From NCBI RefSeq assembly GCF_902728285.1, contig NW_027103826.1, positions 116,759 through 180,758 on the forward strand: a DNA stretch of 64,000 nucleotides, given 5' to 3'. Positions 20,629 through 43,639 of the stretch are shown in pieces; position 1 is the first letter of the stretch; each line of letters begins with the position of its first letter. The DNA is from Clytia hemisphaerica (taxonomy: Eukaryota). The notes under the pieces were generated by a model that saw nothing but the letters and a program-made list of their open reading frames with translations, was not told the origin of the DNA and searched no databases. The position numbers were made by a program, and so were the translations under genes.

Positions 20629-20753
20629 TTAAAGAAAAATTGCAAAAATTATTTTTTTTTTAGATTTCTCAATTTTTGGCCTAAACTCACTCAAAAATGC
20701 TGAAAAACACCAAAAAATCACATTTTCAAATTTTTTTTTTCACTTTGTTTAAC

Positions 20754-21366: not shown

Positions 21367-22288
21367 TTAAAAAAGGTTAATGTGAAAAAAAATTTATATA
21401 ATAAGATATAGTCCAAAGTTTATCAATGATTGACTTCAAAAATTATCAAAAACGACAAAAAAGAGCCTTTTTTTTAGTCAAACAGGGATAAAGTTTTAAG
21501 CTGTATTTTTTTATTAAATGAAAAGTTTTTTAATATTTTTTCGCATTTATGACGTTCTAAGATTGACGAAATTCTGATACAAAAATGAAGATCATAGCGG
21601 TACAAGAAGTTGATTTTCTTCTTCTTCATTTTTCATCTTCGTTTTTCCATTTTTTAATTTTTTTCTTTTTTGATAATATTTTACTCCGAATTATCTTTTT
21701 AACGAGCCCAAAACCGTTAACTAATTCAAATTCTATCAAAATTTATCGAGGTTTGAAAATAAACTCTGCCAGCTAATTAGAAATAGACTTTACGAAATTC
21801 TCGCGGTTTTTCACCTTCAAAAGTCCTTCTAAGTGTTACAAAATTACAAAAGACTAAAGAGTAAAAAAAATGAAATATAGCCAATGGTTAGTGTGGAATA
21901 TTCAAGTTTTCCCAAGCAAGCAAAAGTGGTGCCTTTAAAGATTTACGCGGCATTTCACGGGTTGGCGGCATTTCACGGGTTGAATCTGTACTTTCTTCGT
22001 TTTGGGCGTTTTACATTTTTCAAATTCTGGCGATAGCGAAAAAATCCAGTGTTTACATGAAAACCACGCAGGCTGAGCAATATAGGTAGGGAATAAATCG
22101 CTTCAAACACTGAATATGAGATTGACTCTAGGTCGTTGACGTTCCATTTTTTTAGTCGTTTAGCATGCTAGACGATAACTTCAGTTCTATTGAAGAGCGT
22201 GAAAATTGTTATGTTGATGTATATTATAAAAGATTGTGAACTAGAAAATTCTAAAAAATATTTCGTAGTACATTCACATTAAAAGAAA

Positions 22289-25902: not shown

Positions 25903-26541
25903 TTAAGGAAGCCTGAGATTTCATAAAATGACGTATGTTCTAAATAACACTATTCTGAGTGCAAAAAAATGAGTCTCGTATTCTTATAAATGAAAGCCAT
26001 GCTTACTTTCCATCCACAGCCTCGAAGTGTGTCCATTTCAAACCTAATTCCCTCATCGAGTTCCTCATGTGCAAAAACCGATTTTTACGACGTTTCAAAT
26101 TGATGACAAAGATCTGTAAAAGAATTGAAAAGTGCTGGATTTGTATTCCAGTGCTTCTTTTTGCAATAGTTGTATAATAAAATGTTCAGGAAATGTATTT
26201 TCCATGTATTTAGGAAATTCAAACCATAGAAACTTTCGCATTCAGTTTTTTTTATTATCAATTCTAGTCATTTTCAGTTGATATCTAACCTTTCAATTAT
26301 TTTCGGTTTCCTTATTTAGAATGCATTGGATACTCAGATGGCTTAAGATTTTCGCCTTAAATTGTCCCCTTTACGTCCACTATGAGAATCCTCTTGTTTA
26401 GAGAAAATATTGATTGAAATAACGATTGACGTCAAATTGAAAAGGATCCTTGGGATCTTGAATCCTCAATTCAGAAATCCAATTTCCACAGAGTTAAGAT
26501 AAAAAATCCATGTCTTAGTGTGTCTCTACAGGGCAAAAATC

Positions 26542-28500
26542 GGATCAGGTGCAGTTAGCGTGGTCACTGGTTGGATTCTTTAGCAGTGGAGAGCACTGTT
26601 AAAGAATATAACCTAATGTCGTTTAACCTAATAATGTTATAAAATACAGACCAGAATATATTTCACTGTTAAACAATCCAACCTAGTCCACTGTTAAACA
26701 ATCCAACCTAGTCCACTGTTAAACAATCCAACCTAGTCCACTGTTTAACAATCCAACCTAGTCCACTGTTTAACAATCCAACCTAGTCCACTGTTTAACA
26801 ATCCAACCTAGTCCACTGTTTAACAATCCAACCTAGTCCACTGTTTTTTAACAATCCACCTAGTCCATACAGTCCAACTAGTCCACTGTTAACAATCCAA
26901 CCTAGTCCATGTTAAACAATTTGACCTAGTCCACTGTTAAACAATTTGACCTAGTCCACTGTTTAACAATTTAACCTATAGTCATGCCCGGTCCACTGTT
27001 AAACAATTTAACCTACAGTCATGTCCGGTTCACTGTTAAACAATCTGACGTAGTCCAACCCCTGGTCACTGTTTAACAATTTGACCTAGTCCACTGTTAA
27101 ACAATTTAACCTACAGCCATGTCCGATCCACTGTTAAACAATTTAACCTACAGCCATGTCCGGTCCACTGTTAAACAATCCAACTTAGTCCACTGTTTAA
27201 CAATCCAACCTAGTCCACTGTTTAACAATCCAACCTAGTCCACTGTTTAACAATCCAACCTAGTCCACTGTTAAACAATTTGACCTAGTCCACTGTTTAA
27301 CAATCCAACCTAGTCCACTGTTTAACAATCCAACCTAGTCCCACTGTTTAACAACAATCCAACCTAGTCCACTGTTAAACAATTTGACCTAGTCCACTGT
27401 TTAACAATCCAACCTAGTCCACTGTTTAACAATCCAACCTAGTCCACTGTTTAACAATCCAACCTAGTCCACTGTTTAACAATCCAACCTAGTCCACTGT
27501 TTAACAATCCAACCTAGTCCACTGTTTAACAATCCAACCTAGTCCACTGTTTAACAATCCAACCTAGTCCACTGTTTAACAATTTGACCTAGTCCACTGT
27601 TTAACAATCCAACCTAGTCCACTGTTTAACAATCCAACCTAGTCCACTGTTAAACAATTTGACCTAGTCCACTGTTAAACAATTTGACCTAGTCCACTGT
27701 TTAACAATTTAACCTATAGTCATGCCCGGTCCACTGTTAAACAATTTAACCTACAGTCATGTCCGGTTCACTGTTAAACAATCTGACGTAGTCCAACCCC
27801 TGGTCACTGTTTAACAATTTGACCTAGTCCACTGTTAAACAATTTAACCTACAGCCATGTCCGATCCACTGTTAAACAATTTAACCTACAGCCATGTCCG
27901 GTCCACTGTTAAACAATCCAACTTAGTCCACTGTTTAACAATCCAACCTAGTCCACTGTTTAACAATCCAACCTAGTCCACTGTTTAACAATCCAACCTA
28001 GTCCACTGTTAAACAATTTGACCTAGTCCACTGTTTAACAATCCAACCTAGTCCACTGTTTAACAATCCAACCTAGTCCACTGTTTAACAATCCAACCTA
28101 GTCCACTGTTAAACAATTTGACCTAGTCCACTGTTTAACAATCCAACCTAGTCCACTGTTTAACAATCCAACCTAGTCCACTGTTTAACAATCCAACCTA
28201 GTCCACTGTTTAACAATCCAACCTAGTCCACTGTTTAACAATCCAACCTAGTCCACTTTTTAACAATTTGACCTAGTCCACTGTTAAACAATTTAACCTA
28301 CAGCCATGTCCGGTCCACTGTTAAACAATCCAACTTAGTCCACTGTTTAACAATTTAACCTTAGTCATGTCCGGTCCACTGTTAAACAATCCAACCTAGT
28401 CCACTGTTAAACAATTCAACCTACAGTCATGTCCGGTCCACTGTTAAACAATTTGACCTAGTCCACTGATAAACATTCCAACCTAGTCCCATCCCTTGTC
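26542..28500 (+). repeat. Left arm of the giant element: unique terminus plus a ~1.85-kb minisatellite array (unit CCACTGTTTAACAATCCAACCTAGT, ~25 bp) with a ~730-bp higher-order periodicity
   Basis: Direct tandem units with variants (caatttgacctag, caatttaacctacagtcatgtccgg). Blocks at 26940..27180 recur at 27660..27900. Confidence 0.8.
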
Positions 28501-28699
28501 ACGAGTAAACAACCTAACTTAGTTTCATTCCTGGTCACTGGGTTCTTAAAAAAAGAAGAAACTCTCAGGCTCTCAGCTATCCAACGAGCTATAAAACAAA
28601 GTCTAAATCTTTCTGGTTCAGGAAGTATTGGCATTTAGATATTTTCCTAGCTCATTGTAACAAAAAAGGCACGGAACGCTGCTTGGTGAAAATACAGTA

Positions 28700-29950
28700 C
28701 ATGGTGTGATTTGCGTTGTCACTAAAAGAGGTAACGAGTGGTAAGGATGTGGTAACGAGTGGTAACGAGGTGGTAACGAGGTAACCAGTTAAATACGTTG
28801 GCCCTAAAAGGCTCTAATTTTGAATTACTCGATTCTGATGAATGTAGAGCAGGACAATGTTTCCAGTGAATATGATAGTGGAGTTGATGGTCCTGTTGAA
28901 TGTGCAGCAGGGGTTGGTGGTTTAGGTAAATGTGCATCAGAGTTTTATGGTTCTGGTGATTTTAATGGTGGAGTTGATAGTTCTGGTGAATGTGATGACA
29001 GAGTTGGTGTTTCTGGTGAATGGGAGGCAGAAGTTGATGGTTCTGGTTAATGTGCTGGTGGAGGTAACGTTACTGGTGAATTTGATGGTGGATTTGGTGG
29101 TTCTGGTGCATATGATTGTGGAGCAGGAGTTTGAGTTTCTTGTGGATGTAAGTTTGGAGCTTATAGGTATCTGGCAAAATAAGTCAAACACCGACAGTTG
29201 TTAATGTCTTTAGATAGATAGCATTTATCACAATTCTAGCCCTATAGAAAACTGTCAAACACTTGAATACAATATATCGAAATTCATGATAATCCATCCA
29301 TCCCAAGAACAACCAGACCTGATGTAGATCTACCAAAACTAACAGTCTTGCGCTAAGAAGCATCAGAACCAACATGTATTTCTGTAGAACCTTTATAACC
29401 ACAAGGATCTGTTGCATAACCACCAGAACAACCAGTTCCTGCACTGCAGAATCACCATAATCACAAGTTGCTGCTTAAGAATAAGCAGATCCTTTAGGTT
29501 TTGTTGCAGAATCACCAGAATAACAAGGTTCTGTTGCAAGGTCACCAGTTCATGTTGCAGAATCAACAGAACAAACATGTCCTGCTGCAGAATCACAAGG
29601 ACCACCAACTCTTCTATCACATTCACCTAAACCACCAACTCCTGATGCACATTCACCAGAACTACCAACTCTTGCTGCACATTCACCAAAACCAGCAGTT
29701 CCTGCGGCACATTCACCACAACCACTAGTCCCTACTGCAGATTCAACACAACCACCAGTTCCTGATGGACATTCACCAAAACCATGTTAACTAAAGCTGT
29801 AAAGGCATAAATCAGAATCGATTCTTTCGGTTTTACAATATTTGACTCTTTAGGGCTACCATTTTCAACTCGTTACCTCGTTACCACATCGTTACCACTC
29901 GTTACCAGCCGTTACCACTCGTTACCAGCCGTTACCACTCGTTACCACTT
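28700..29950. repeat. ~1.25-kb imperfect palindrome: GGTAACGAG mini-repeats and coding-like (GSGECD..VDGSG) 30 to 40-bp repeats on one arm, with their reverse complement on the other
   Basis: 28733..28790 (ggtaacgagtggtaacgagg..) pairs with 29866..29950 (ctcgttaccactcgttacc..). The 28820..29200 repeats are reverse-complementary to 29400..29780. The centre is near 29250..29350. Confidence 0.6.
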
Positions 29951-30754
29951 TTAGTAACAACGTGTGATTTAATGTATTTAGGAATTTGTATAAACTTTTT
30001 CTGCTTTTTCACACAGCCTACGTATTTATAAGGGCTACTTAGACTACACAATATATTGACGAACAATATTCGACAATATGGTTTGCGGACCGTAATGTAC
30101 GAAGTAAACAACTGGTACTCTATTATAAAAAGGAATTTTCTTTCTGTAAACAATCCCCCTTTATTGTTGGAATATTGCAAATCGAGCTGACAATATATTG
30201 CGGACACCTTTTCAATATATTGCCGACATTCAGCAATATACCATCAATATATTGCCCGACAATATATTGTGTAGTGTATGTAGCCCTATACGGTTTGAAA
30301 AGATGTTTTTACCGGTGTGAACCGGACACTCTCTATTGGTCATAACTCTATACCTAAATGGTTTGTCAGTGATTTGTTATCGGATATCGTATCTGTTCTC
30401 CGTTATGTCAGCTATTAAAATTAAAAAGTCATATAAAGATTTTTTTTAGCCAATCAGATTGCGTTTTGTCCTTGCGGCAAATGAGTAGAAGAAAAAAATA
30501 AAAACATATGTGTACTCCATTTTGAGAATGTGAGAATGAAGTTCAAGAAAAAGACTATTATTTATTTATCATGCATATTAAAAAGGCATTAACAATAGTG
30601 TCTACAATTTCTTCTTTTGTTCTTTCAAATCAAAAAAATACTTAAAGTTATATCTGGAAGCGTTTGCGTCGCTATTCACACATATATTTTTTTCTCATGG
30701 AAATTAATATTTCCACAAACGCAGGTTTTTCATATCATTGTCGACGCGTTTACT

Positions 30755-30936
30755 ATGGCTGCAGTGCATCGGAGATTTTTACAGAGATGGGGAGCATTAC
30801 TTTTAGGCAATGATAAAATTGCAATCATACATTTTCTACAAGGACAAGGTTTACTAAGTGTTGTCAAGATGTGTCAAACTTGTGGTTCGCCGATGCAACT
30901 TGAAGCTAATAGACAATGCCGTGATGGGTTTAGATG
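30755..30936 (+). CDS. IS1595/ISXO2-like (Merlin-superfamily) DDE transposase, exon 0 (ATG 30755; N-terminal zinc ribbon)
   Basis: MAAVHRRFLQRWGALLLGNDKIAIIHFLQGQGLLSVVKMCQTCGSPMQLEANRQCRDGFR(W) matches the IS1595 transposase zinc-ribbon N-terminus (..C..YL..RWP.G..CP.CG...). Donor tg|gtaagt is phase 2 and joins exactly to exon 1 (tg+g=W). Confidence 0.55.
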
Positions 30937-31822
30937 GTAAGTTTTTATCATGAAGTTGTAATCGTACCTTTAGTTTTGAGGCAATTTGAAATCCAACTTG
31001 CTCCCTTTGGGTTCTGGGTTAAGTTAAAGGCTCCTCCTTGCAAAAAGGCTAGAAATACATCTTAAAATAATTTATTACTTAGAATAAACACCCCTTCTTT
31101 TAAACACCTCCTCGGATAAAAGCCCCCTTTTTTAGGAAAATAATTAATAAACGTCTCCTCCTCAAATAAACGCTCTTCCCTGGAAGGGTTTTTTTATTTA
31201 AAAATAGGCTCTTAGTCGAAACTTTCATTTTGAGAGAGAAATGGATACTTCGACACACAAGAACAAGAACATCGATAATTTTTAAAAATGTTGTTATGGT
31301 ATAAAAATATATGTATCGCATTATCAAAAACAATTCTTCGTGTTTAATTTTTCAAAATTCTCGAATAAATGCGCACACCCCCTTAAAATCCAAAAAAACG
31401 AATTTTTCACGAATATGGCCCTAATTCGCAAAAGTTTCTTCAGAAAAATTAATCTCAGACAGGCAATTCGCAAAATATTTCTTTCGCGAAAGTTACTTTC
31501 TTTCAATCAATTTTTAGTCAGAGATAAAAAAATATTAAAATGATCTAAGAGACAATCATTAATTAATACAAATACATTTTCTAGTCCATAACAACTAACG
31601 TTTCCTTTTTTTCATCAAAACGTGATTAAAACAGTACGCATTTTTATATAATTTGCGAAAACTTCTTCCGTAAAAGTAATTTCGGAGAGCTCAATTCACG
31701 AAATATTTTCCGCGAAAATTACTTCCCTTAGGGTAGGAGCGATAATGGAATGTAGTTAGAAGGTCGGTTATGACAACATAAATTTTATCCAGACAATTTC
31801 TAACACAGATATTTTTGTTTAG

Positions 31823-32123
31823 GAGGTGTAACCGACCATGTCGCAGATGTTTGAGGCTCCGAGATGGGACAATATTTGAATCGTGGACGCATATTTCCCT
31901 TAGTGATTTATTTTTGATAATCTTCCTGTGGTCAAACAACGTTTCTATGACCAAAATAACGAATATTGTTGGAATACCAAAAAAAACAGTGATCAAAATG
32001 TTGCAGCTTCTTCGCCAAGTCTGTACGAATGATCTAGCCAGAAACCCAGTTGCTATTGGTGGTGGGGGGGGTGCTAATTTTGTTGTCCAGATTGACGAGA
32101 GCCAATTCCATCACAGGCAAAGA
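31823..32123 (+). CDS. Merlin/ISXO2-like transposase copy 1, exon 1
   Basis: Acceptor tttgtttag, donor AGA|gtatgt. Encodes RCNRPCRRCLRLRDGTIFESWTHISLSDLFLIIFLW..TKITNIVGIPKKTVIKMLQLLRQV..VAIGGGGGANFVVQIDESQFHHRQR. These are the second Cys pair, the HTH, and the first catalytic Asp of the DDE motif (V.IDES). Confidence 0.65.
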
Positions 32124-32324
32124 GTATGTTTTCATACGAGTGAGAGAGATTTTTAACTACATTTTGCTCAAAAGTTTGTCATTCTTTTAAATTTTTGATA
32201 GAATCGAATGCATATTTTGCAGTTTAGTCTTAACAAAAAAATTGAATATTTTCCAAAGTGCGTTCGACTTCATTACATAATGTTGTTTTGACCCTATTCT
32301 TTTAATTCTCGTTTCTTTATATAG

Positions 32325-32603
32325 GGAGGAAGAGGAAGAAGAGCGCAGGCACCTGTTTGGGTATTTGGCTTGGCCGATACTCAATACACACCCGCCAAAG
32401 GCTATATGGAAATTGTGAACAGGCGAAATAGGCCCACTCTCACTGCTGTAATTAATCGGGTTTTGAACCCTAACTCTGTCATACATAGCGATGAATGGCG
32501 TGCTTACAATAGGCTTCGAAACTTTGTACCGAACTGCATACAACACGATACCGTAAACCATACATACAACTTTGTCGATCCTCTAACAGGAGCCCACACA
32601 CAG
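32325..32603 (+). CDS. Merlin/ISXO2-like transposase copy 1, exon 2
   Basis: Acceptor tttatatag, donor CAG|gtaacc. Encodes GGRGRRAQAPVWVFGLADTQ..TLTAVINRVLNPNSVIHSDEWRAYNRLRNFVPNCIQHDTVNHTYNFVDPLTGAHTQ. This fits the ISXO2-like consensus (GGK.K.RGR...V.G.VER......L..II...V..GS.I.TDEW.GY..L..GY.H.TVNHS..FVDP.TG.HTN). Confidence 0.7.
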
Positions 32604-32809
32604 GTAACCAGACAATAATTTTTTGTAAAATTAGCCATTGGGCTCGGTACATTTTTTTAGTTCTCTGTAAAATTCTTGTAAAGTTTGCAGTTCCCTAAAA
32701 ACCCCACCCCACCCATAAAAGTAAAAGCTTTGAAAAGTGATATTTTTAACGTTTTTATATTTTAGAAAAGTTTATACTTTTTTCAAACCCTTTCTTTTTT
32801 TTTCATTAG

Positions 32810-32910
32810 AACATTGAATCGTACTGGAACCGTTTTAAGCTGAAACTGAAAGCTATGAAAGGTGTCGAACGAGCCAATTTACAAAGTTACATGAACGAGT
32901 TCATGTGGAG
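32810..32910 (+). CDS. Merlin/ISXO2-like transposase copy 1, exon 3
   Basis: Acceptor ttcattag, donor ag|gtaatt. Encodes NIESYWNRFKLKLKAMKGVERANLQSYMNEFMW (consensus NTIEGFWS.LKR...G...L..YL.EF.FR). Confidence 0.6.
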
Positions 32911-33232
32911 GTAATTATTTTTCAATCGGAAAGAAATGATTTGAAGCTACCTGACACTGGCAGGCCTCTCATAACAGATGAGATGAAGTTTTTATAAGAT
33001 ACTTTAATGATTGGTCATTTGAAGTAATAACAATGACGTGTTCTTTAGAAAAAGTAACAAAATTGTTTTATTACTGGTTAACGACCAACCGAATCAAATG
33101 AGAGCTTGTAAAAATTCAATCTCGTCCCTCTCATAAGGAATAAAACAGCTAGTCCTAAATTTTTATTGGGTTTAAACGTCATTTGATAATCCATAGATTA
33201 GGCAATTTAATGATTTTGTAATTCTTTTTTAG

Positions 33233-33305
33233 GGACTGGTATGGACTAGACCAAACATTTGACAACATAATCAACCGGATAAATATTGATTATCCACAAG
33301 CTTAA
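33233..33305 (+). CDS. Merlin/ISXO2-like transposase copy 1, exon 4 (stop TAA 33303..33305)
   Basis: Acceptor tttttag. Encodes (R)DWYGLDQTFDNIINRINIDYPQA*. The five exons sum to 936 nt, which is 312 codons, so the phases are consistent. Confidence 0.55.
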
Positions 33306-34503
33306 GTTTGCTTTCATTGAAGTATGATTTTTATGTTTTCTTTTGTTATTGATTCACAAGTCATAGTTTGACTTCTAGAGACTAAAGCTATTTTTAGGTA
33401 TTTTGTATGTATATGGTATAACATTTCATTATGCAGAACAAAGACTCTTACCATTAAAAATATACTTTAACTCTTTATATTTTGCCCTTTCCGCCAAAAT
33501 TTGTCTCGCGATATCGCGTGGGATCGTCGATTCGCGAAATCAAATCGTCAAATCCACGCGAAATTTTTGAAACTACCATTTTAGCAAACAAAGTTATCAA
33601 AACCATGCAATTTTGGTAAAATATGTCCATTTTTAGGGTCTTTCGCGAAATTATACTCACGCGAAAGTCTTGACTCACAAAATTAAATCCTATTAAAGTA
33701 GCCTTAATCTGTCTTATCTTGAAATTGTTCACATTGGTTAGTGCTCCTTCTTTTCCAGGCAACGTTGAAAAAAAGGTAAACAAACAGGGTAAAAAGGCAC
33801 GTATAGTAGTGACAGGAACAATGTGAAAAGTATACTTGGGTGCGATGTATACTTGTCTTGGGTGCGAGGAATACTTATGAAATGTACAGTGCTCAGTAAA
33901 ATTGTTTTGTGTAAGTTCCTGTGAAAAGTGCTGAACATCCTAGTTTGGAAGATAGGCAAAAAAGTGTTCTTTTTCGCAAAGGTTGATTTTAGTTAAATCG
34001 GAGTCAAATGGGTCAATCATGAAAATTAATTCTTGCGAAATATATAGTCAAATAATCTTGATTTCCTTAAGATTTGCTCAAAAATTAAGAACATCTTAAA
34101 AACATGCCAAGGTTGAAATGAAGAAGAAAAGTCTACTAAGGGATTCTTAACGCTTAAATAACAGACACAAAACATAATTTCAACATTGTTTCAATGTCCA
34201 ACTAATGTCTGATGTTGAAATAACATTTTTTGAACAACAAATTTCAAAGCTACTTTTTTGGATTCATTTTCTCAAAAAAATTGTTTTTAGCACTTACAAG
34301 TACCATAACGGGCGTTTTTCAGACTTGTCGAGCGCCCTCTCCACCCGATATAATTTATTTATAGAAGTGTATTTCTCAGGTCCATTGACCTCTATGAAAC
34401 AATCTTACATTTTTACAATTTATAGATCTTATCATTCGTTTGTCAATTCTGTTATAGAGTTTTACAGTTAGGTACCTGGGCCTCTAACCCACTCTTCTTA
34501 TAA

Positions 34504-35455
34504 TCATGTTGTTTCCGTCGAAAATTTCTTTAAATAGAGTTTAGTCCTAGGACTACCTCTCACTTTCCATATACCACTCTTGTCTTTTTCATTCGATGTT
34601 TTTTCTTTTGCTTTACGATGCCATTGTTTTATTATCTCCCGTTCTTTCCTTGAAAAATCGTCTGATACCCTGAAATCATCTTTATCTAGTTTGTGGGCTG
34701 ATGCAAGTATTCTAATCCTTTCTTCTTCACTCTCGAGAGTAACTTTCAATGGTCTCCATCGTTCATTTGTATACATTTCATCTTTACGAGCACCTATGCG
34801 TCTTCTACCTTGATTATCGTCACATCGAAAACCCATTTGTTGTTTCAGTATTCTTTCTATGAAATCTTTGTCACCAACTCGTTGCTCTTCTTCGTTTTCG
34901 TGCTTGTTTTCACCTAAATCATGCACCATGATGTTGCACTTGGTTGATTTGAGCCAACGCTCCTCTTCGTTCACTGATTTGATGAAACTTTTTATGGTCA
35001 CCTCTTGTTTTTTGTAGATCTTCTTTGGTGACTTCTGCATATGATTGTTTTTTTGTTTCTGTGTTGTTGAGCTGTGTTTCAGATCGTTTGTTGTTCCGTT
35101 CTTTGTTGACGTCTTTTTTTTTCATTAGCTTCTCGATTTTCCTTTCTAGAGAGGTTATTCTCTCGTTGAAACCTAATTTCAATCCATGATGTTCATCTTT
35201 GTCTGCTTCTTTCGTTGTGATGTCACTGCGAGCTTTTTGTCTGCTTGTTTTAATCCTCTCAAATAAGAGTGGCGTTATTGTAACACAATTTCCACATTCG
35301 AAGCGCCGGCTTTTATATTGCAGACAAAGCTGAATCTGATAGGCCGGGAGCTCAGAGCAAGCATAATGGACAAGTCTATCACATCTCCTACATTGTAAGG
35401 TGTCGTTATCTTCTATGATGGTGTTTATCAAACAGTTATTGGTTGTGCAATACAA
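34504..35455 (-). pseudogene. Frameshifted duplicate of the L1 ORF1p-like gene (tandem-duplication copy 1)
   Basis: Two overlapping frames (34504..35040 and 34919..35455) together cover the same protein as 39355..40302. Indels of 4 nt net break the frame. Confidence 0.55.
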
Positions 35456-36671
35456 TATCCATAATTTTTTTGAATTTCCTTGTTAGAATTTTCGTTGATT
35501 TCCGTCATATTGTTGCATTTTCAGGATCGTGGCAGCACAGAAAAAATTTGACGTCAATATATAAGGGGGGGTAAACCGGCCGGAGTACCATTTTCAACTA
35601 GTAATATCTCCTAAACCAAGCATTTTATGAGGCTTTTGTAGCTACCAATCGAAAGAGGACAAAATTCTGAACAAAAAAAACTGGTTTTGGGCGCCACCTA
35701 GCCGTTAACGATTATCACCATGCATTAACTCCTTTGATACCGTTCCAGCCAAAATCGTTCCTATTGGAACGACGTTTTCTCCAGCCTCTGATAGAAAGAA
35801 ATTTTCAATCGCTTTGAAACTGCATTTTCTTGAAAGTTGATACTTTTAATTAAAACGAAAACGACGTTTTCATACCGTGAAAAGCACAGCTCAAAATCAT
35901 ATATTTACGCTGTGCCGACGAATCGAGATTCTATTCATCGCGCAATCAGCGAAGACAAAAGTAACCATGACGACCATCCAAGATCTTGGATGAGCGTCAT
36001 AGTCGATATTTTTATTCCCGTCGTTGAAAACACAACTTACAAAAAGTCATCAATGCTTTTTAAAAAGAGTCAGTGATAGAGAATCATAACATAAAGTCTG
36101 TCTATTATTTCGATTCAATTAAAGTGACATTTCCATAATTAAAAGTTTAGTAATTACTGTTATACATTTGGGGATCATGTAAGAGATTTCTTTCGAAATA
36201 AACTCATTTCAACTAAACTTGGAGGTTGTTTCTGGGGAATTCGTAAATAGTAAACTGCATACTGATACAGTCTGCTAGACATTAATATGGTAATATTTGC
36301 TCTTCATCTTTGATTTTTTTTACAGTGATTAGATTGACACATGCGCGATAAAATTTCTATTATTTTGTCTTCAGAGGTTACTATTTTCTTTGAAAACTTA
36401 ACCTCTGATACTCAGGGTAACGTTTTCAAGTCTTTCATTAGTAAGTACGTTTCCTTTTTTTCATCAAAACGTGATTAAAACAGTACGCATTTTTATATAA
36501 TTTGCGAAAACTTCTTCCGTAAAAGTAATTTCGGAGAGCTCAATTCACGAAATATTTTCCGCGAAAATTACTTCCCTTAGGGTAGGAGCGATAATGGAAT
36601 GTAGTTAGAAGGTCGGTTATGACAACATAAATTTTATCCAGACAATTTCTAACACAGATATTTTTGTTTAG

Positions 36672-36969
36672 GAGGTGTAACCGACCATGTCGCAGATGTT
36701 TGAGGCTCCGAGATGGGACAATATTTGAATCGTGGACGCATATTTCCCTTAGTGATTTATTTTTGATAATCTTCCTGTGGTCAAACAACGTTTCTATGAC
36801 CAAAATAACGAATATTGTTGGAATACCAAAAAAAACAGTGATCAAAATGTTGCAGCTTCTTCGCCAAGTCTGTACGAATGATCTAGCCAGAAACCCAGTT
36901 GCTATTGGTGGTGGGGGTGCTAATTTTGTTGTCCAGATTGACGAGAGCCAATTCCATCACAGGCAAAGA
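36672..36969 (+). CDS. Merlin/ISXO2-like transposase copy 2, exon 1. This is the duplicated paralogue; its unit has no exon 0, so it is probably 5'-truncated
   Basis: Near-identical to 31823..32123 with one Gly codon fewer. There is no upstream zinc-ribbon exon inside its 4.85-kb unit. Confidence 0.5.
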
Positions 36970-37170
36970 GTATGTTTTCATACGAGTGAGAGAGATTTTT
37001 AACTACATTTTGCTCAAAAGTTTGTCATTCTTTTAAATTTTTGATAGAATCGAATGCATATTTTGCAGTTTAGTCTTAACAAAAAAATTGAATATTTTCC
37101 AAAGTGCGTTCGACTTCATTACATAATGTTGTTTTGACCCTATTCTTTTAATTCTCGTTTCTTTATATAG

Positions 37171-37452
37171 GGAGGAAGAGGAAGAAGAGCGCAGGCACCT
37201 GTTTGGGTATTTGGCTTGGCCGATACTCAATACACACCCGCCAAAGGCTATATGGAAATTGTGAACAGGCGAAATAGGCCCACTCTCACTGCTGTAATTA
37301 ATCGGGTTTTGAACCCTAACTCTGTCATACATAGCGATGAATGGCGTGCTTACAATAGGCTTCGAAACTTTGTACCGAACTGCATACAACACGATACCGT
37401 AAACCATACATACAACTTTGTCGTCGATCCTCTAACAGGAGCCCACACACAG
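37171..37452 (+). CDS. Merlin/ISXO2-like transposase copy 2, exon 2
   Basis: Same as copy 1 exon 2 with a 3-nt insertion (..NFVVDPLTG..). Confidence 0.5.
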
Positions 37453-37658
37453 GTAACCAGACAATAATTTTTTGTAAAATTAGCCATTGGGCTCGGTACA
37501 TTTTTTTAGTTCTCTGTAAAATTCTTGTAAAGTTTGCAGTTCCCTAAAAACCCCACCCCACCCATAAAAGTAAAAGCTTTGAAAAGTGATATTTTTAACG
37601 TTTTTATATTTTAGAAAAGTTTATACTTTTTTCAAACCCTTTCTTTTTTTTTCATTAG

Positions 37659-37759
37659 AACATTGAATCGTACTGGAACCGTTTTAAGCTGAAACTGAAA
37701 GCTATGAAAGGTGTCGAACGAGCCAATTTACAAAGTTACATGAACGAGTTCATGTGGAG
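37659..37759 (+). CDS. Merlin/ISXO2-like transposase copy 2, exon 3
   Basis: Identical splice sites and coding sequence to copy 1 exon 3. Confidence 0.5.
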
Positions 37760-38086
37760 GTAATTATTTTTCAATCGGAAAGAAATGATTTGAAGCTACC
37801 TGACACTGGCAGGCCTCTCATAACAGATGAGATGAAGTTTTTATAAGATACTTTAATGATTGGTCATTTGAAGTAATAACAATGACGTGTTCTTTAGAAA
37901 AAAGTAACAAAATTGTTTTTATTACTGGTTAACGACCAACCGAATCAAATGAGAGCTTGTAAAAATTCAATCTCGTCGTCCCTCTCATAAGGAATAAAAC
38001 AGCTAGTCCTAAATTTTTATTGGGTTTAAACGTCATTTGATAATCCATAGATTAGGCAATTTAATGATTTTGTAATTCTTTTTTAG

Positions 38087-38159
38087 GGACTGGTATGGAC
38101 TAGACCAAACATTTGACAACATAATCAACCGGATAAATATTGATTATCCACAAGCTTAA
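38087..38159 (+). CDS. Merlin/ISXO2-like transposase copy 2, exon 4 (stop 38157..38159)
   Basis: Identical to copy 1 exon 4. Confidence 0.5.
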
Positions 38160-39354
38160 GTTTGCTTTCATTGAAGTATGATTTTTATGTTTTCTTTTGT
38201 TATTGATTCACAAGTCATAGTTTGACTTCTAGAGACTAAAGCTATTTTTAGGTATTTTGTATGTATATGGTATAACATTTCATTATGCAGAACAAAGACT
38301 CTTACCATTAAAAAATATACTTTAACTCTTTATATTTTGCCCTTTCCGCCAAAATTTGTCTCGCGATATATCGCGTGGGATCGTCGATTCGCGAAATCAA
38401 ATCGTCAAATCCACGCGAAATTTTTGCTACCATTTTAGCAAACAAAGTTATCAAAACCATGCAATTTTGGTAAAATATGTCCATTTTTAGGGTCTTTCGC
38501 GAAATTATACTCACGCGAAAGTCTTGACTCACAAAATTAAATCCTATTAAAGTAGCCTTAATCTGTCTTATCTTGAAATTGTTCACATTGGTTAGTGCTC
38601 CTTCTTTTCCAGGCAACGTTGAAAAAAAGGTAAACAAACAGGGTAAAAAGGCACGTATAGTAGTGACAGGAACAATGTGAAAAGTATACTTGGGTGCGAT
38701 GTATACTTGTCTTGGGTGCGAGGAATACTTATGAAATGTACAGTGCTCAGTAAAATTGTTTTGTGTAAGTTCCTGTGAAAAGTGCTGAACATCCTAGTTT
38801 GGAAGATAGGCAAAAAAGTGTTCTTTTTCGCAAAGGTTGATTTTAGTTAAATCGGAGTCAAATGGGTCAATCATGAAAATTAATTCTTGCGAAATATATA
38901 GTCAAATAATCTTGATTTCCTTAAGATTTGCTCAAAAATTAAGAACATCTTAAAAACATGCCAAGGTTGAAATGAAGAAAAGTCTACTAAGGGATTCTTA
39001 ACGCTTAAATAACAGACACAAAACATAATTTCAACATTGTTTCAATGTCCAACTAATGTCTGATGTTGAAATAACATTTTTTGAACAACAAATTTCAAAG
39101 CTACTTTTTTGGATTCATTTTCTCAAAAAAATTGTTTTTAGCACTTACAAGTACCATAACGGGCGTTTTTCAGACTTGTCGAGCGCCCTCTCCACCCGAT
39201 ATAATTTATTTATAGAAGTGTATTTCTCAGGTCCATTGACCTCTATGAAACAATCTTACATTTTTACAATTTATAGATCTTATCATTCGTTTGTCAATTC
39301 TGTTATAGAGTTTTACAGTTAGGTACCTGGGCCTCTAACCCACTCTTCTTATAA

Positions 39355-40302
39355 TCATGTTGTTTCCGTCGAAAATTTCTTTAAATAGAGTTTAGTCCTA
39401 GGACTACCTCTCACTTTCCATATACCACTCTTGTCTTTTTCATTCGATGTTTTTTCTTTTGCTTTACGATGCCATTGTTTTATTATCTCCCGTTCTTTCC
39501 TTGAAAAATCGTCTGATACCCTGAAATCATCTTTATCTAGTTTGTGGGCTGATGCAAGTATTCTAATCCTTTCTTCTTCACTCTCGAGAGTAACTTTCAA
39601 TGGTCTCCATCGTTCATTTGTATACATTTCATCTTTACGAGCACCTATGCGTTCTACCTTGATTATCGTCACATCGAAACCCATTTGTTGTTTCAGTATT
39701 CTTTCTATGAAATCTTTGTCACCAACTCGTTGCTCTTCTTCGTTTTCGTGCTTGTTTTCACCTAAATCATGCACCATGATGTTGCACTTGGTTGATTTGA
39801 GCCAACGCTCCTCTTCGTTCACTGATTTGATGAAACTTTTTATGGTCACCTCTTGTTTTTGTAGATCTTCTTTGGTGACTTCTGCATATGATTGTTTTTT
39901 TGTTTCTGTGTTGTTGAGCTGTGTTTCAGATCGTTTGTTGTTCCGTTCTTTGTTGACGTCTTTTTTTTTCATTAGCTTCTCGATTTTCCTTTCTAGAGAG
40001 GTTATTCTCTCGTTGAAACCTAATTTCAATCCATGATGTTCATCTTTGTCTGCTTCTTTCGTTGTGATGTCACTGCGAGCTTTTTGTCTGCTTGTTTTAA
40101 TCCTCTCAAATAAGAGTGGCGTTATTGTAACACAATTTCCACATTCGAAGCGCCGGCTTTTATATTGCAGACAAAGCTGAATCTGATAGGCCGGGAGCTC
40201 AGAGCAAGCATAATGGACAAGTCTATCACATCTCCTACATTGTAAGGTGTCGTTATCTTCTATGATGGTGTTTATCAAACAGTTATTGGTTGTGCAATAC
40301 AA
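39355..40302 (-). CDS. LINE-1 ORF1p-like protein (Transposase_22-like RRM plus C-terminal domain) with an N-terminal PHD-like C4HC3 zinc finger and a coiled coil; 315 aa, intact
   Basis: The C-terminal half (KCNIMVHDLGE...FIERILKQQMGF...RWRPLKVTLESEEERIRILASAHKLDKDDFRVSDDFSRKEREIIKQW) parallels L1 ORF1p (NLRIIGVPE...R.IIVKF.K...KE.IL.AAREK....G..IRL.AD.SAET...RREW). The N-terminus is CLINTIIEDNDTLQCRRCDRLVHYACSELP..C..C, followed by a K/E-rich coiled coil. There is no RT or endonuclease ORF nearby. Confidence 0.6.
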   Translation of the reverse strand: MYCTTNNCLINTIIEDNDTLQCRRCDRLVHYACSELPAYQIQLCLQYKSRRFECGNCVTITPLLFERIKTSRQKARSDITTKEADKDEHHGLKLGFNERITSLERKIEKLMKKKDVNKERNNKRSETQLNNTETKKQSYAEVTKEDLQKQEVTIKSFIKSVNEEERWLKSTKCNIMVHDLGENKHENEEEQRVGDKDFIERILKQQMGFDVTIIKVERIGARKDEMYTNERWRPLKVTLESEEERIRILASAHKLDKDDFRVSDDFSRKEREIIKQWHRKAKEKTSNEKDKSGIWKVRGSPRTKLYLKKFSTETT

Positions 40303-41809
40303 TATCCATAATTTTTTTGAATTTCCTTGTTAGAATTTTCGTTGATTTCCGTCATATTGTTGCATTTTCAGGATCGTGGCAGCACAGAAAAAATTTGACG
40401 TCAATATATAAGGGGGGGTAAACCGGAGTACCATTTTCAACTAGTAATATCTCCTAAACCAAGCATTTTATGAGGCTTTTGTAGCTACCAATCGAAAGAG
40501 GACAAAATTCTGAACAAAAAAAACTGGTTTTGGGCGCCACCTAGCCGTTAACGATTATCACCATGCATTAACTCCTTTGATACCGTTCCAGCCAAAATCG
40601 TTCCTATTGGAACGACGTTTTCTCCAGCCTCTGATAGAAAGAAATTTTCAATCGCTTTGAAACTGCATTTTCTTGAAAGTTGATACTTTTAATTAAAACG
40701 AAAACGACGTTTTCATACATACCGTGAAAAGCACAGCTCAAAATCATATATTTACGCTGTGCCGACGAATCGAGATTCTATTCATCGCGCAATCAGCGAA
40801 GACAAAAGTAACCATGACGACCATCCAAGATCTTGGATGAGCGTCATAGTCGATATTTTTTATTCCCGTCGTTGAAAACACAACTTACAAAAAGTCATCA
40901 ATGCTTTTTAAAAAGAGTCAGTGATAGAGAATCATAACATAAAGTCTGTCTATTATTTCGATTCAATTAAAGTGACATTTCCATAATTAAAAGTTTAGTA
41001 ATTACTGTTATACATTTGGGGATCATGTAAGAGATTTCTTTCGAAATAAACTCATTTCAACTAAACTTGGAGGTTTCTGGGGAATTCGTAAATAGTAAAC
41101 TGCATACTGATACAGTCTGCTAGACATTAATATGGTAATATTTGCTCTTCATCTTTGATTTTTTTTACAGTGATTAGATTGACACATGCGCGATAAAATT
41201 TCTATTATTTGTCTTCAGAGGTTACTATTTTCTTTGAAAACTTAACCTCTGATACTCAGGGTAACGTTTTCAAGTCTTTTCATTAGTAAGAAAACGCCCC
41301 GCAAACTTTCTCATTTCTCAATTGTTCTCTTTCTGGCGGTATTGAAAGAGTTAAAACAACGCTCCGTGCCTGCTATTACGGTTCTCTAGAGAATTGGACT
41401 CGTATATAGAAGAACATTAAGAAGAACATCCCATCTGAAAATTGAGAAAATAAAGTCCAAATAATACGTAAATACGATTTTAGAACAAAATTAAAATGCC
41501 TTGCGCATGATTTTATTTTCGTCACCCGGTAATGCAGAAATGAAGAGTTTTTAGATTTGGCCGCGGGTTGAATTTTTTTCATTCATTCATTCATTCATTT
41601 AATGAATGAAAATGAAATGGGATGTCTTTTCCCCCAAAAGAGCAAGAAAAAAAATTTAATCACGTGTTTTTTTTTCTTTCACGTTTTTTTTCTTTTGTAT
41701 CCCCTTTTCATTTTTCTTTCTTTATTTGTTGGCTTGAACGTCAGACGTTCACATTAGTAAACTTTGAGGGAGATTTCATTTCGGTCATTTGCCAATTGAA
41801 ATCGTAATC

Positions 41810-43521
41810 ATGACCTTTGAAGACATATTAGCGATTTGTGAAGATGAGCAAGTTTTGATAAGGGAGCTGATGGATGCTGGCTTATTAGCGAGTACAAGAA
41901 AATGTATGAACCGGAGAAAACACGAAGACGATATTCAGATGATATTATTGCCAGATATGAAGACTTGGTAAGACGTTTTAATTTGCTTTTGTTTACCCTG
42001 AAAAATCATTTACGTTTCTATGAAGCTCTTTCTCCTTTCATGAATCTGATAAATATCAATCTCAAAGATGTTTGATACTTTCATTTGAAGTCTTAAAAGC
42101 CTTTAAATATAAAATATATCAAGAAACAAAGTCTAATAAAATATCAACACAATATATCAGCAGTAAACAAATAACTGACGCTTAAAAGCGGCAATTTTTT
42201 AATCCCCAGTAAGTTAATTATTTTTAACTTATTTTTTGCCTACATGTTTTTAAGGCGATGCCCAAGATGTACAAGCAAAGCTTCATTCAAGACGGGGTCG
42301 TTTTTTTCGCAAACAAATATACCACTTTCAAAATGGATTCAAGGCATTGATAGATGGGCACGCCAGATGAGCCTTAGGGTAATGATATATTTAAAAAAGA
42401 GGACACAATGAAAAAAACAGACCTTTATGTCCTTTATCGTAAATACTAACCTGATATTCATATGCTGAATTTTCTATCGGTACGTTTTTAAAGCTCTAAA
42501 GACACAATGAAAATATACCATCTACGTAGGCTAGGTCATCTTTTCAAAGCCCTACCTTAAGCTTAAGTAGCTAAATGCATACCCAGCAGGCATGGGACGT
42601 TGTTTTAACGTCCAAAATACGTTTTAAGAAATTTTAAGCTCTTAACAATTTCGGTCCAGTTTAAAAATAAAAACCAGTAAACAGTTTAAAATGTCTGCGA
42701 AATTTTCATGTAATAAAATATACTTTGATTCTTTAGGAGATTGCTGAGGATTTGGACTTGTCGATTCCTACAACAAGCCAAATGATGAAGCATTTTCGAG
42801 AGCAGTGTCAAAGTTTTTTCGACCGCAATCTTCATGAAACTGGTGGCCCTGGTATTCAAGTAAAAGTTAAAGAACTTAAGGTAATACCATTTTTACCGGT
42901 TGAAAGAGAGATCGCTACAATCGGTACAAAATCCTTTTTGCTTATTACCTAACCCTAACAAGAAACTATTTAAAAACAAAAGGTTGTTGAATCAAAACTA
43001 ACCAGATGGCCCGGCTGGTATCCTACTTAAAATTTGGGTATTTCTTAAAAAAGAGAATAGATAACATCGGGTGCCTAGGATTTGTTACTCTTAATCTAGA
43101 CTCAAATTAGTTTTATACTTTTTTTCAATAGAAATGCACCAACACGTGTAATATTCTTATCGCGTTAGATGGCAGTTGCGGACGAGGATACCTTTTCCAC
43201 AATACCAATGGAAGATTCCAGGAAGAAGATTATATGTTTGTGTCACCAATCAAGTCTGGAACCATGGTCTTCACCGACATTCGCGATTTAAACGTAAGGC
43301 CAAATGTTGCCATGTCCAATACTCTGGAGTTGTTTCAAGGCAATGACGATCAAGCGACACAAGCAATTAGATGGCTCAGGCACTTCAGAGGGGTACAATG
43401 TCAAAAGGCTGGTGCCCTATTATCTGAATATAATTTGCGCTTTTGGGTCGATGATGGACTGGAATTCCATGAAAGATTTTTTCAAGCTTTCGTAAGAAAC
43501 TATGAAAATGAATTTGTATAA
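41810..43521 (+). pseudogene. Divergent third IS1595/Merlin-like transposase paralogue, probably degenerate or catalytically inactive. Exon-like blocks at 41810..41967, 42737..42880 and 43132..43521
   Basis: Block A, MTFEDILAICEDEQVLIRELMDAGLLASTRKC.., is the N-terminal F.DE..C..L motif. Block B, EIAEDLDLSIPTTSQMMKHFREQC...TGGPGIQVKVKELK, aligns to ITNIVGIPKKTVIKMLQLLRQVC...GGGGGANFVVQIDES with the first catalytic D replaced. Block C, ..ILIALDGSCGRGY..FTDIRDLNVRPNVAMSNTLELFQGN..RHFRGVQCQKAGALLSEYNLRFWV, aligns to IHSDEWRAY..FVDPLTGAHTQNIESYWNRFK..LQSYMNEFMW. The GGK/RGR linker segment is missing and the A-to-B phases do not join cleanly. Confidence 0.4.
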
Positions 43522-43639
43522 ACTAAAATATATTGATCGCTAATTGTTGATTAAAGTGATAGTTTTTTATGGATCTATGAAAATCTTATATTTTTTATTG
43601 TTCTTTTTTTGAGAAAAAAAATATAAACTTAATTCCTAT

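What the first reader, a model, noticed from the sequence alone, without database searches (positions are those of the whole stretch)
30755..33305. Full-length, intron-containing IS1595/ISXO2 (Merlin) transposase gene reconstructed as 5 exons / 311 aa; the first (zinc-ribbon) exon lies outside the tandemly duplicated unit
Five exons with canonical GT-AG junctions and consistent phases give 936 nt (312 codons). They encode a zinc ribbon (C-x2-C...W-R-C-x3-C-x2-C), an HTH, the V.IDES catalytic Asp block, a GGRGRR linker, IHSDEWRAY...VNHT..FVDP.TG.HT, and NIESYWNRFK...YMNEFMW. These are all the landmark blocks of the ISXO2-like transposase family. Exon 0 (30755..30936) is 0.9 kb upstream of the duplication boundary at 31597. 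Only copy 1 therefore encodes a complete protein. Copy 2 (36672..38159) is an exact 5'-truncated duplicate. The introns and intact ORF suggest either a recently active eukaryotic Merlin element or a host-adopted transposase.
Basis: partly seen in the sequence, partly recalled or inferred. Interest (0 to 1): 0.75.

Follow-up and report, generated by a model that had tools for sequence, protein, structure and literature searches.

The report
Intron-bearing Merlin transposase gene, Clytia
This is an intact, four-intron gene for a Merlin/IS1595-type "cut-and-paste" transposase in the jellyfish Clytia hemisphaerica; it is already in RefSeq as an uncharacterized protein and is an ordinary member of a large, known transposon family.

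Summary
The five-exon model checks out: 936 nt, GT-AG at all four introns, and a 311-aa ORF. It hits DDE_Tnp_IS1595 (Pfam E=4e-20) and the NCBIfam IS1595 transposase model (E=2e-35).

RefSeq already holds the same model for Clytia hemisphaerica. XP_066924142.1 (310 aa) is identical apart from one Gly.

Exon 0 belongs to the gene. It carries half of a zinc ribbon (C40/C43 with C63/C67) and aligns with the N-termini of intronless full-length relatives.

The 4.85-kb tandem duplication starts in intron 1 at 31598, as reported. Copy 2 is not exact: the units differ by 18 short indels and no substitutions, two of them in-frame in the CDS. That pattern suggests assembly noise.

I found no TIRs or 8-9-bp TSD at this locus.

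Relatives in other contigs (51% identity over the C-terminal half) are canonical Merlin transposons. They have GG-initiated TIRs of at least 111 bp and 8-bp TSDs. They carry an intron at the position of intron 2 here and one a codon from intron 1. Introns are therefore a family trait, not a sign of domestication.

Clytia holds at least six paralogue clusters, with both intact and decayed members.

Verdict: a known kind of element, probably an immobilised copy that still has coding capacity. Interest is low.

The parts
30755..30936 (+). Exon 0: start codon, N-terminal helices and the first zinc knuckle (C40-x2-C43). It ends in phase 2 inside the W61 codon.
   Evidence: It aligns with the N-termini of full-length relatives and with bacterial IS1595 N-termini. 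It is present only once in the window.
30937..31822 (+). Intron 1 (886 bp, GTAAGT...TTTAG). It contains the left breakpoint of the tandem duplication at 31597/31598.
   Evidence: The Tara scaffolds L005-L007 have the same exon break. The WLWD01 Merlin element has an intron one codon away in the same phase.
31823..32123 (+). Exon 1: second zinc knuckle (C63-x3-C67), helix-turn-helix, and the first catalytic Asp (D152 in VVQIDES).
32325..32603 (+). Exon 2: GGRGRR, the RNase-H-like core strands and the second catalytic Asp (D217 in IHSDEW), VNHT..FVDP.TGAHTQ.
   Evidence: Intron 2 (32124-32324, phase 0) is at the identical position and phase in the TIR-bounded WLWD01 elements.
32810..32910 (+). 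Exon 3: catalytic Glu (E257 in NIESYW) and K264, ending ...NEFMWR.
   Evidence: The intron 3 position is shared with L005-L008 and P0027.
33233..33305 (+). Exon 4: C-terminal helix (DWYGLDQTFDNIINRINIDYPQA) and the TAA stop.
   Evidence: The C-terminus is conserved in P0002, P0004, P0006, P0009, P0038, P0040 and P0046. ATTAAA lies at 33453.
31598..36445 (.). Tandem duplication unit, copy 1 (4848 bp): the 3' part of intron 1, exons 1-4, and 3.1 kb downstream including a frameshifted PHD-finger repeat ORF on the minus strand.
36447..41290 (.). Tandem duplication unit, copy 2 (4844 bp). It differs from copy 1 by 18 short indels and 0 substitutions. There is no homology at the breakpoints.
36672..38159 (+). 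Copy 2 of exons 1-4 (36672-36969, 37171-37452, 37659-37759, 38087-38159). All splice sites are intact. It lacks exon 0, so on its own it has no start codon and no first zinc knuckle. It has one Gly fewer and one Val more than copy 1.
   Evidence: The UniProt entry P0037 carries the same NFVVDP variant.

Best explanation
The locus is a copy of an intron-bearing Merlin-superfamily DNA-transposon gene in the hydrozoan Clytia hemisphaerica. Merlin is the eukaryotic branch of the IS1595 family.

**What it encodes.** The product is a 311-aa DDE transposase with four parts:
- N-terminal helices followed by a four-Cys zinc ribbon, split between exons 0 and 1.
- A helix-turn-helix.
- An RNase-H-like catalytic core carrying D152, D217 and E257, plus K264.
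- A long C-terminal helix.

**How it would work (inferred).** By analogy with DDE transposases, the zinc ribbon and helix-turn-helix bind the transposon ends. The DDE triad then coordinates two metal ions, cuts the ends and joins them into a staggered 8-bp target. This is inferred from the family and was not tested.

**State of this copy.** The coding capacity is intact, but the locus has no recognisable terminal inverted repeats or target-site duplication. It is most likely an immobilised member of a multi-copy, birth-and-death transposon family. At most it could supply transposase in trans. It does not look like a mobile element or a dedicated host gene.

**The duplication.** A 4.85-kb non-homologous tandem duplication, or an assembly artefact that mimics one, begins inside intron 1. 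It repeats exons 1-4 together with an unrelated neighbouring repeat.
For: **Identity.** Pfam PF12762 scores E=4.2e-20. NCBIfam NF033547 scores 122.6 bits against a cutoff of 75. D152, D217, E257 and K264 are nearly invariant across 29 relatives. The N-terminus (aa 19-81) matches bacterial IS1595 N-termini by hhalign with probability 93.7% and E=1.9e-7. The AlphaFold2 model has pLDDT 92.3 and pTM 0.88, with a three-strand ribbon, a helix-turn-helix and an alpha/beta core. Its best PDB fold matches are retroviral integrases and the ISCth4 transposase.

**Gene model.** RefSeq XP_066924142.1 (P0035, 310 aa) equals the model minus one Gly.

**Transposon nature of the family.**
- The WLWD01 loci L017-L025, L043 and L055 are about 1.9-kb elements, 94-97% identical to one another.
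- Their TIRs are at least 111 bp long and start GGATCAATTGC.
- They have 8-bp TSDs: GCTAAATG, GATTTCAG and CCAGCTTC.
- Their transposase is 51% identical over aa 164-309. It has an intron at the position and phase of intron 2 and another one codon from intron 1.

**Family in Clytia.** There are at least six paralogue clusters sharing less than 90% identity.
- Intact members are P0035, P0038, P0040, P0044 and P0046 (308-315 aa).
- Decayed members include P0003 (D to N and E to K in the first catalytic block), P0001, P0012 and P0041 (C-terminal frameshifts), and P0025 (fused to a Harbinger ORF).
- Members sharing 90% identity or more within clusters 3 and 4 lie on different scaffolds.
- A homologue with in-frame stops, a frameshift and the same exon breaks occurs in Tara scaffolds L005-L007.

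**Family size.** 8879 representative clusters match at E<=1e-3. Most of the 150 best listed are about 300 aa and match from about residue 20 onward.
Against: - No TIR or TSD was found at this locus by three searches, so the defining structural features of a Merlin element are missing here.
- I could not read the other Clytia copies as DNA. Copy number, element edges and empty sites are therefore untested. The family-level argument rests on protein records and on elements from another, unidentified organism.
- An intact ORF, four retained introns, a RefSeq model and transcript-derived models for paralogues (TCONS entries) fit a host-adopted gene equally well.
- No transcript evidence for this particular locus was available.
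Confidence: 0.65

Rival explanations
1. It is a host-adopted (domesticated) Merlin transposase: a stationary gene kept by selection for a cellular function such as DNA binding or cleavage, and part of a small hydrozoan gene family.
For: No TIR or TSD is present. The 311-aa ORF is intact, with four introns and good splice sites. Introns 3 and 4 are absent from the TIR-bounded WLWD01 relatives. Five distinct full-length paralogues exist in Clytia, some with transcript-derived models. TIR-less conserved Merlin ORFs in ciliates and dinoflagellates have been read as domestication in PMC8101967.
Against: Frameshifted, catalytically mutated and chimeric copies occur alongside intact ones in the same clusters. 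Copies sharing 90% identity or more lie on different scaffolds. A homologue with stops and a frameshift occurs in another organism's scaffolds. The full DDE+K triad is retained, as in active elements. Introns are shared with bona fide transposons, so they carry no weight.
Confidence: 0.2
2. It is a complete, potentially autonomous Merlin element whose ends I failed to recognise. The TIRs could be short or imperfect, or displaced by nested insertions and by the tandem duplication.
For: The ORF and catalytic residues are intact. Merlin families with very imperfect TIRs (12 mismatches in 26 positions) have been described in PMC8101967. The flanks are full of other repeats: a palindromic array at 28730-29949, a MITE-like element at 30032-30288 and a PHD-ORF repeat downstream.
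Against: Exact-seed, 14/20+TSD and GG-anchored 17/24 searches over 0.8-2.3 kb upstream and up to 5.6 kb downstream all returned nothing beyond the satellite. In the WLWD01 relatives the ends lie within about 0.45 kb of the CDS.
Confidence: 0.15
3. The 4.85-kb 'tandem duplication' is an assembly artefact, for example an uncollapsed overlap or haplotype in a noisy long-read assembly. In that case the real locus holds a single gene copy.
For: The units differ by 18 indels of 1-4 bp and 0 substitutions, which is the signature of consensus error rather than divergence. RefSeq's P0035 has neither the extra Gly of copy 1 nor the extra Val of copy 2. Three indels break the PHD ORF in copy 1 only. There is no homology at the breakpoints. 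Another near-identical tandem pair at 20013-21374 is also indel-biased, with 2 gaps and 1 mismatch.
Against: The NFVVDP variant of copy 2 also exists as a separate UniProt entry, P0037. RefSeq lists two distinct near-identical proteins on the same scaffold, P0001 and P0035. More than one copy therefore probably exists.
Confidence: 0.3

Closest known systems
RefSeq XP_066924142.1 (and XP_066936947.1), 'uncharacterized protein' of Clytia hemisphaerica; UniProt A0A7M5UND6 / A0A7M5X7V9, 'ISXO2-like transposase domain-containing protein'
   Same: It is the same gene. XP_066924142.1 (310 aa) is identical to the 311-aa model apart from one Gly in the poly-Gly run, and it uses all four splice junctions. 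A0A7M5X7V9 carries the copy-2 NFVVDP variant.
   Different: The window's copy 1 has GGGGG where the RefSeq protein has GGGG. XP_066936947.1 has D75N and a 2-bp deletion that truncates the C-terminus. None of these records names the protein as Merlin or describes the zinc ribbon.
Merlin superfamily of eukaryotic DNA transposons (Feschotte 2004; survey in PMC8101967)
   Same: It shares the DDE_Tnp_IS1595 catalytic domain, the DDE triad and a transposase of about 300 aa. Its relatives in the WLWD01 contigs have 5'-GG TIRs and 8-bp TSDs, exactly as Merlin is defined. Merlin hits in Cnidaria are already reported in PMC8101967.
   Different: This locus has no TIR or TSD and the gene has four introns. 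It also has an N-terminal zinc ribbon homologous to that of bacterial IS1595. [quoted passage not shown]
Bacterial IS1595 family insertion sequences (ISXO2 / ISPna2-type; NCBIfam NF033547, Pfam PF12760 + PF12762)
   Same: It has the same three-part architecture of zinc ribbon, helix-turn-helix and DDE(K) core. NF033547 matches over aa 83-289. The N-terminus aligns with those of P0028-P0033.
   Different: Identity is only 23-25%. The Pfam PF12760 model itself does not hit. The host is eukaryotic and the gene has spliceosomal-type GT-AG introns.
TIR-less conserved Merlin-derived ORFs in Stentor and Symbiodinium, interpreted as possible domestication (PMC8101967)
   Same: Both are intact DDE_Tnp_IS1595 ORFs without TIRs or TSDs, amplified by segmental rather than transpositional duplication.
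   Different: Those cases are protists. Here the family also contains many decayed copies, and its relatives include canonical mobile elements.

Membership tests
Merlin superfamily (eukaryotic IS1595-like DNA transposons) | Transposase with a DDE_Tnp_IS1595 (PF12762) catalytic domain | tested here: met
   Pfam E=4.2e-20, 72.7 bits against a cutoff of 27, aa 154-288. NF033547 scores 122.6 bits against 75.
Merlin superfamily (eukaryotic IS1595-like DNA transposons) | Conserved D..D..E catalytic triad in three blocks (50-70 aa between blocks 1 and 2, per PMC8101967) | tested here: met
   D152, D217 and E257 are spaced 65 and 40 aa apart. All three, plus K264, are conserved in at least 90% of 29 aligned relatives.
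Merlin superfamily (eukaryotic IS1595-like DNA transposons) | Terminal inverted repeats of 24-462 bp with a terminal 5'-GG | tested here: not met
   No inverted match was found between the flanks, apart from an unrelated 25-bp satellite. The feature is met in the related WLWD01 elements, whose TIRs are at least 111 bp and start GGATCAATTGC.
Merlin superfamily (eukaryotic IS1595-like DNA transposons) | 8- or 9-bp target-site duplication | tested here: not met
   No TIR-plus-TSD candidate flanks the gene. 8-bp TSDs are seen in the relatives L017, L043 and L025.
Merlin superfamily (eukaryotic IS1595-like DNA transposons) | Multiple dispersed copies sharing their termini (evidence of transposition in this genome) | tested here: inconclusive
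   Only protein-level evidence is available: at least six paralogue clusters, some with members sharing 90% identity or more on different scaffolds.
Bacterial IS1595 family | N-terminal Zn_Tnp_IS1595 zinc ribbon | tested here: met
   C40-x2-C43...C63-x3-C67. hhalign against bacterial N-termini gives probability 93.7% and E=1.9e-7. The AlphaFold2 model shows a three-strand ribbon. The Pfam PF12760 HMM itself gave no hit even at E<=10.
Bacterial IS1595 family | Prokaryotic insertion sequence with a single uninterrupted transposase ORF | tested here: not met
   The gene has four GT-AG introns. The host is Clytia hemisphaerica, shown by 99-100% identity to RefSeq proteins.
Domesticated (host-adopted) transposase gene | Loss of transposon ends (TIR and TSD) | tested here: met
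   The feature is necessary but not sufficient.
Domesticated (host-adopted) transposase gene | Orthologue kept at a syntenic site across species under purifying selection | not testable with these tools
   No hydrozoan genome DNA was available. The only homologue with the same exon breaks that I recovered (L005-L007) carries stops and a frameshift.
Domesticated (host-adopted) transposase gene | Not part of a decaying multi-copy repeat family | tested here: not met
   Frameshifted, catalytically mutated and chimeric paralogues occur in the same clusters as intact ones.

The most novel reading that the evidence does not exclude
The Clytia clade (four introns, no TIRs, several intact transcribed paralogues) could be a hydrozoan-specific domestication of a zinc-ribbon-bearing Merlin transposase. 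It would then be a catalytically competent DDE nuclease kept for a host function. Its zinc ribbon would also support the idea that eukaryotic Merlins descend from a Zn-ribbon IS1595 lineage rather than from IS1016.
Probability: 0.15. Interest if true: 0.45.

Novelty: new member of a known kind. Interest (0 to 1): 0.2.

Why it matters
The practical value is mostly in annotation. RefSeq's 'uncharacterized protein' can be named a Merlin/IS1595-type transposase. The neighbouring exon set at 36672-38159 should not be called a separate gene.

Two points may interest transposon specialists.
- This Merlin lineage keeps an N-terminal zinc ribbon homologous to that of bacterial IS1595 elements. A 2021 survey said described Merlins lack this domain.
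- Canonical TIR-bounded relatives carry an intron at the position of intron 2 and one a codon from intron 1. Introns in such genes should therefore not be taken as evidence of domestication.

Neither point opens a major question.

Tried and rejected
**TIR and TSD search at the locus.** Three searches found nothing beyond the unrelated 25-bp satellite.
- blastn-short between the flanks, minus strand.
- A 20-bp TIR with at least 14 matches plus an 8/9-bp TSD with at most 1 mismatch, over 28400-30755 against 33306-36445 and 41200-43700.
- GG-anchored 17/24 matches and any 19/24 matches, with shuffles as control.

**The inverted 25-bp satellite arrays (26.5-28.5 kb and 43.7-44.8 kb) as giant TIRs.** I rejected this. 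No unique inverted sequence lies at their edges, and 1-2-kb satellite arrays enclosing about 15 kb are far beyond the 24-462-bp TIRs reported for Merlin.

**Fetching Clytia paralogue DNA.** RefSeq proteins P0001 and P0012 are not on record in the contig index. Element edges in Clytia could therefore not be mapped.

**TIRs around the intronless marine-metagenome homologues L001-L004.** None were found, and similarity between L002 and L003 is confined to the ORF.

**Pfam Zn_Tnp_IS1595 on the N-terminus.** There was no hit even at E<=10. Homology showed up only by profile-profile comparison.

**The 315-aa PHD-finger ORF in the duplicated unit as a second gene of the element.** I rejected this. 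It belongs to its own multi-copy family with dozens of homologues on short contigs.

**Unequal crossing-over as the cause of the duplication.** There is no homology at the breakpoints.

**First metagenome scan.** It failed with the 29-sequence alignment because no conserved stretch was found, and I repeated it with a tighter alignment.

**dN/dS.** I did not attempt it. No paralogue CDS was available, and it would not separate an active transposase from a host gene.
Full report
**Observation.** The exons are 30755-30936, 31823-32123, 32325-32603, 32810-32910 and 33233-33305 on the + strand. They total 936 nt. Each of the four introns (886, 201, 206 and 322 bp) begins GT and ends AG, with pyrimidine-rich acceptors. 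The joined frame is open for 311 codons plus TAA. tblastn of the product against the window finds exon 0 once and exons 1-4 twice.

**Identity of the protein.**
- Pfam gives a single hit, PF12762 DDE_Tnp_IS1595, at E=4.2e-20.
- NCBIfam gives NF033547, 'IS1595 family transposase', at 122.6 bits against a cutoff of 75, covering aa 83-289.
- In alignments of 27-29 relatives, D152, D217, E257 and K264 are conserved in at least 90% of sequences. This is the DDE(K) signature of the family.
- The AlphaFold2 model is confident, with mean pLDDT 92.3 and pTM 0.88. It shows N-terminal helices, a three-strand ribbon (46-51, 59-62, 70-72), helix-turn-helix helices (87-134), an alpha/beta core (147-269) and a long C-terminal helix.
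- Its best matches among solved structures are retroviral integrases and the ISCth4 transposase (E about 5e-5). This is the RNase-H-like DDE fold. No IS1595 or Merlin chain appears among the 50 top matches listed.

**Exon 0 belongs to the gene.** The four best-conserved cysteines of the ribbon are C40 and C43 in exon 0, and C63 and C67 in exon 1. Full-length, intron-free ORFs from marine metagenomes align continuously across the exon 0/1 junction. These are P0004, P0006, P0007, P0008 and P0011, at 50-57% identity. A profile of the eukaryotic N-termini matches the N-termini of bacterial IS1595 transposases that carry Pfam Zn_Tnp_IS1595, with hhalign probability 93.7% and E=1.9e-7. The Pfam model itself does not hit.

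**Source organism and prior annotation.** The nearest database proteins are from Clytia hemisphaerica.
- RefSeq XP_066924142.1 (P0035, 310 aa) equals the model apart from one Gly fewer in the poly-Gly run.
- XP_066936947.1 (P0001, 295 aa), on the same 1.31-Mb scaffold, has D75N and a 2-bp deletion that frameshifts the last exon.
- UniProt entries A0A7M5UND6 and A0A7M5X7V9 are partial models named 'ISXO2-like transposase domain-containing protein'.

The gene and all four junctions are therefore already in public annotation, under an uninformative name.

**The duplication.**
- Positions 31598-36445 and 36447-41290 form a head-to-tail pair.
- The copies are not exact. They differ at 18 sites, all indels of 1-4 bp, with no substitution at all.
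- Two of the indels are in the CDS and in frame: +GGG in copy 1 and +GTC in copy 2. Three others break a 315-aa minus-strand ORF in copy 1 that is intact in copy 2.
- Copy 2 retains every splice site. Exon 0 joined to the copy-2 exons also gives an open 311-aa frame.
- There is no homology at the breakpoints.
- An indel-only spectrum is what consensus error looks like, not divergence. The RefSeq protein has neither CDS indel.
- I therefore hold open, at about 0.3, that the duplication or at least its 'differences' are assembly artefacts.
- Against a pure artefact, the NFVVDP variant exists as an independent UniProt entry, and RefSeq has two near-identical genes on the scaffold.

**Is this locus a transposon?**
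- Merlin elements are defined by 24-462-bp TIRs with a terminal 5'-GG and by 8-9-bp TSDs (PMC8101967).
- Three searches of the flanks, with the duplication collapsed, found nothing apart from an unrelated 25-bp satellite.
- The upstream flank holds a palindromic set of tandem arrays and a 257-bp MITE-like inverted-repeat element.
- The downstream flank holds a PHD-finger ORF that belongs to a separate multi-copy family.
- The structural hallmarks of an intact element are therefore absent here.

**What the relatives show.** A metagenome-collection scan returned 355 related stretches.
- Nine loci from one WGS project (WLWD01; L017-L025, L043, L055) are about 1.9-kb elements, 94-97% identical to each other.
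- Their TIRs are at least 111 bp long and begin GGATCAATTGCATTAGACGG.
- They have clean 8-bp TSDs: GCTAAATG, GATTTCAG and CCAGCTTC. These are textbook Merlins.
- Their transposase is 51% identical to aa 164-309 here and includes the zinc-ribbon region.
- It is interrupted by an intron at exactly the position and phase of intron 2 (phase 0 after the R161 equivalent).
- A second intron sits one codon from intron 1, in the same phase.
- Introns are thus a trait of this mobile lineage, so their presence in Clytia says nothing about domestication. Introns 3 and 4 are absent from those elements.
- Introns 1-3 are shared with a homologue in Tara scaffolds L005-L007 that carries in-frame stops and a frameshift.

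**The family in Clytia.** The protein database holds at least six clusters sharing less than 90% identity with each other.
- Intact 308-315-aa members are P0035, P0038, P0040, P0044 and P0046.
- Decayed members are P0003 (D to N and E to K in the first catalytic block), P0001, P0012 and P0041 (C-terminal frameshifts), and P0025 (an exon-0-like N-terminus fused to a Harbinger ORF, breaking exactly at the exon 0 boundary).
- Clusters 3 and 4 have members sharing 90% identity or more on different scaffolds.
- This birth-and-death pattern is typical of a transposon family.
- Family-wide, 8879 representative clusters match at E<=1e-3. Most of the 150 best listed are about 300 aa and match from about residue 20 onward. 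The architecture is the norm, not an oddity.

**Mechanism.**
- Shown here: the domain architecture, the catalytic residues, the fold, and the TIR and 8-bp TSD structure of close relatives.
- Inferred from established knowledge of DDE transposases: the zinc ribbon and helix-turn-helix recognise the element ends, and the D152/D217/E257 centre performs hydrolysis and strand transfer into a target cut with an 8-bp stagger.
- Inferred for this copy: without ends it cannot move itself. If expressed, it could at most act in trans on other family members.

**Comparison and novelty.** The locus is a member of the IS1595/Merlin transposase family by sequence, but it fails the structural definition of a Merlin element (no TIR or TSD). 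Merlin hits in Cnidaria are already reported. The one mildly unusual feature is the IS1595-type zinc ribbon. PMC8101967 says described Merlins lack it and notes only a few eukaryotic exceptions. Here it is evidently widespread in the clade.

**Verdict.** The gene is a new member of a known kind and of low interest (0.2). The domestication reading is not excluded (about 0.15-0.2) but has no positive support.

Noticed in passing
window 26522-28523 (+) and 43710-44802 (inverted): Large arrays of a 25-bp satellite (GTCCACTGTTTAACAATCCAACCTA, with 37-, 62- and 100-135-bp higher-order variants) lie in opposite orientation on either side of the whole Merlin/duplication region. Individual arm pairs are 93-97% complementary over 175-201 nt. 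No unique inverted sequence lies at their edges.
   Followed up: partly
window 28730-29949: A palindromic arrangement of tandem arrays: GGTAACGAGT x5 at 28730-28780, 30-bp units at 28866-29123, the reverse complement of those units at 29543-29784, and ACTCGTTACC x8 at 29868-29949. It looks like a foldback structure about 0.8 kb upstream of exon 0.
   Followed up: no
window 30032-30288: A 257-bp MITE-like element with inverted ends of about 28-39 bp (AGGGCTACTTAGACTACACAATATATTG / its complement). It may be flanked by ATA. This is not Merlin-like, because the TSD is too short.
   Followed up: partly
window 39355-40302 (-); frameshifted copy at 34504-35455 (-): A 315-aa ORF with a weak PHD-finger match (E=0.004), followed by a Lys/Glu-rich middle region and a C-terminal domain. 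It is intact only in duplication copy 2. It belongs to a multi-copy family, with 32 homologues including several Clytia 'uncharacterized' proteins. It may be an ORF1-like protein of another repeat.
   Followed up: partly
window 31598-41290: The two duplication units differ by 18 indels of 1-4 bp, most of them gains or losses of a short tandem unit, and by zero substitutions. Another near-identical tandem pair (20013-20636 / 20749-21374) shows 2 gaps and 1 mismatch. This is either residual assembly error in repeats or an odd mutation spectrum.
   Followed up: partly
window 18293-19312 (-): A single-exon 339-aa ORF with a fibrinogen C-terminal globular domain (Pfam E=3.9e-42) and a weak PAN-domain match. 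It is probably a genuine host gene.
   Followed up: no
window 54125-56002 (-): Two ORFs of 249 and 184 aa. The 184-aa ORF matches reverse transcriptase RVT_1 (E=5.6e-10) and is a fragment of a non-LTR retrotransposon. The 249-aa ORF has no significant Pfam hit.
   Followed up: no
window 49901-51017; 60474-60790: A 322-bp tandem repeat in about 3.5 copies, 84-98% identical. Separately, an array of 18-19-bp units overlaps an ORF at 60364-60768.
   Followed up: no
L017-L025, L043, L055 (WLWD01 contigs): A young Merlin family of about 1.9 kb in an unidentified eukaryote-like WGS project. Its TIRs are at least 111 bp and its TSDs are 8 bp. L025 holds a head-to-head composite of two copies sharing one TSD. 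The three copies translated (L016, L018, L020) share an in-frame stop near the N-terminus, which could be a further intron or could mean non-autonomous copies.
   Followed up: partly
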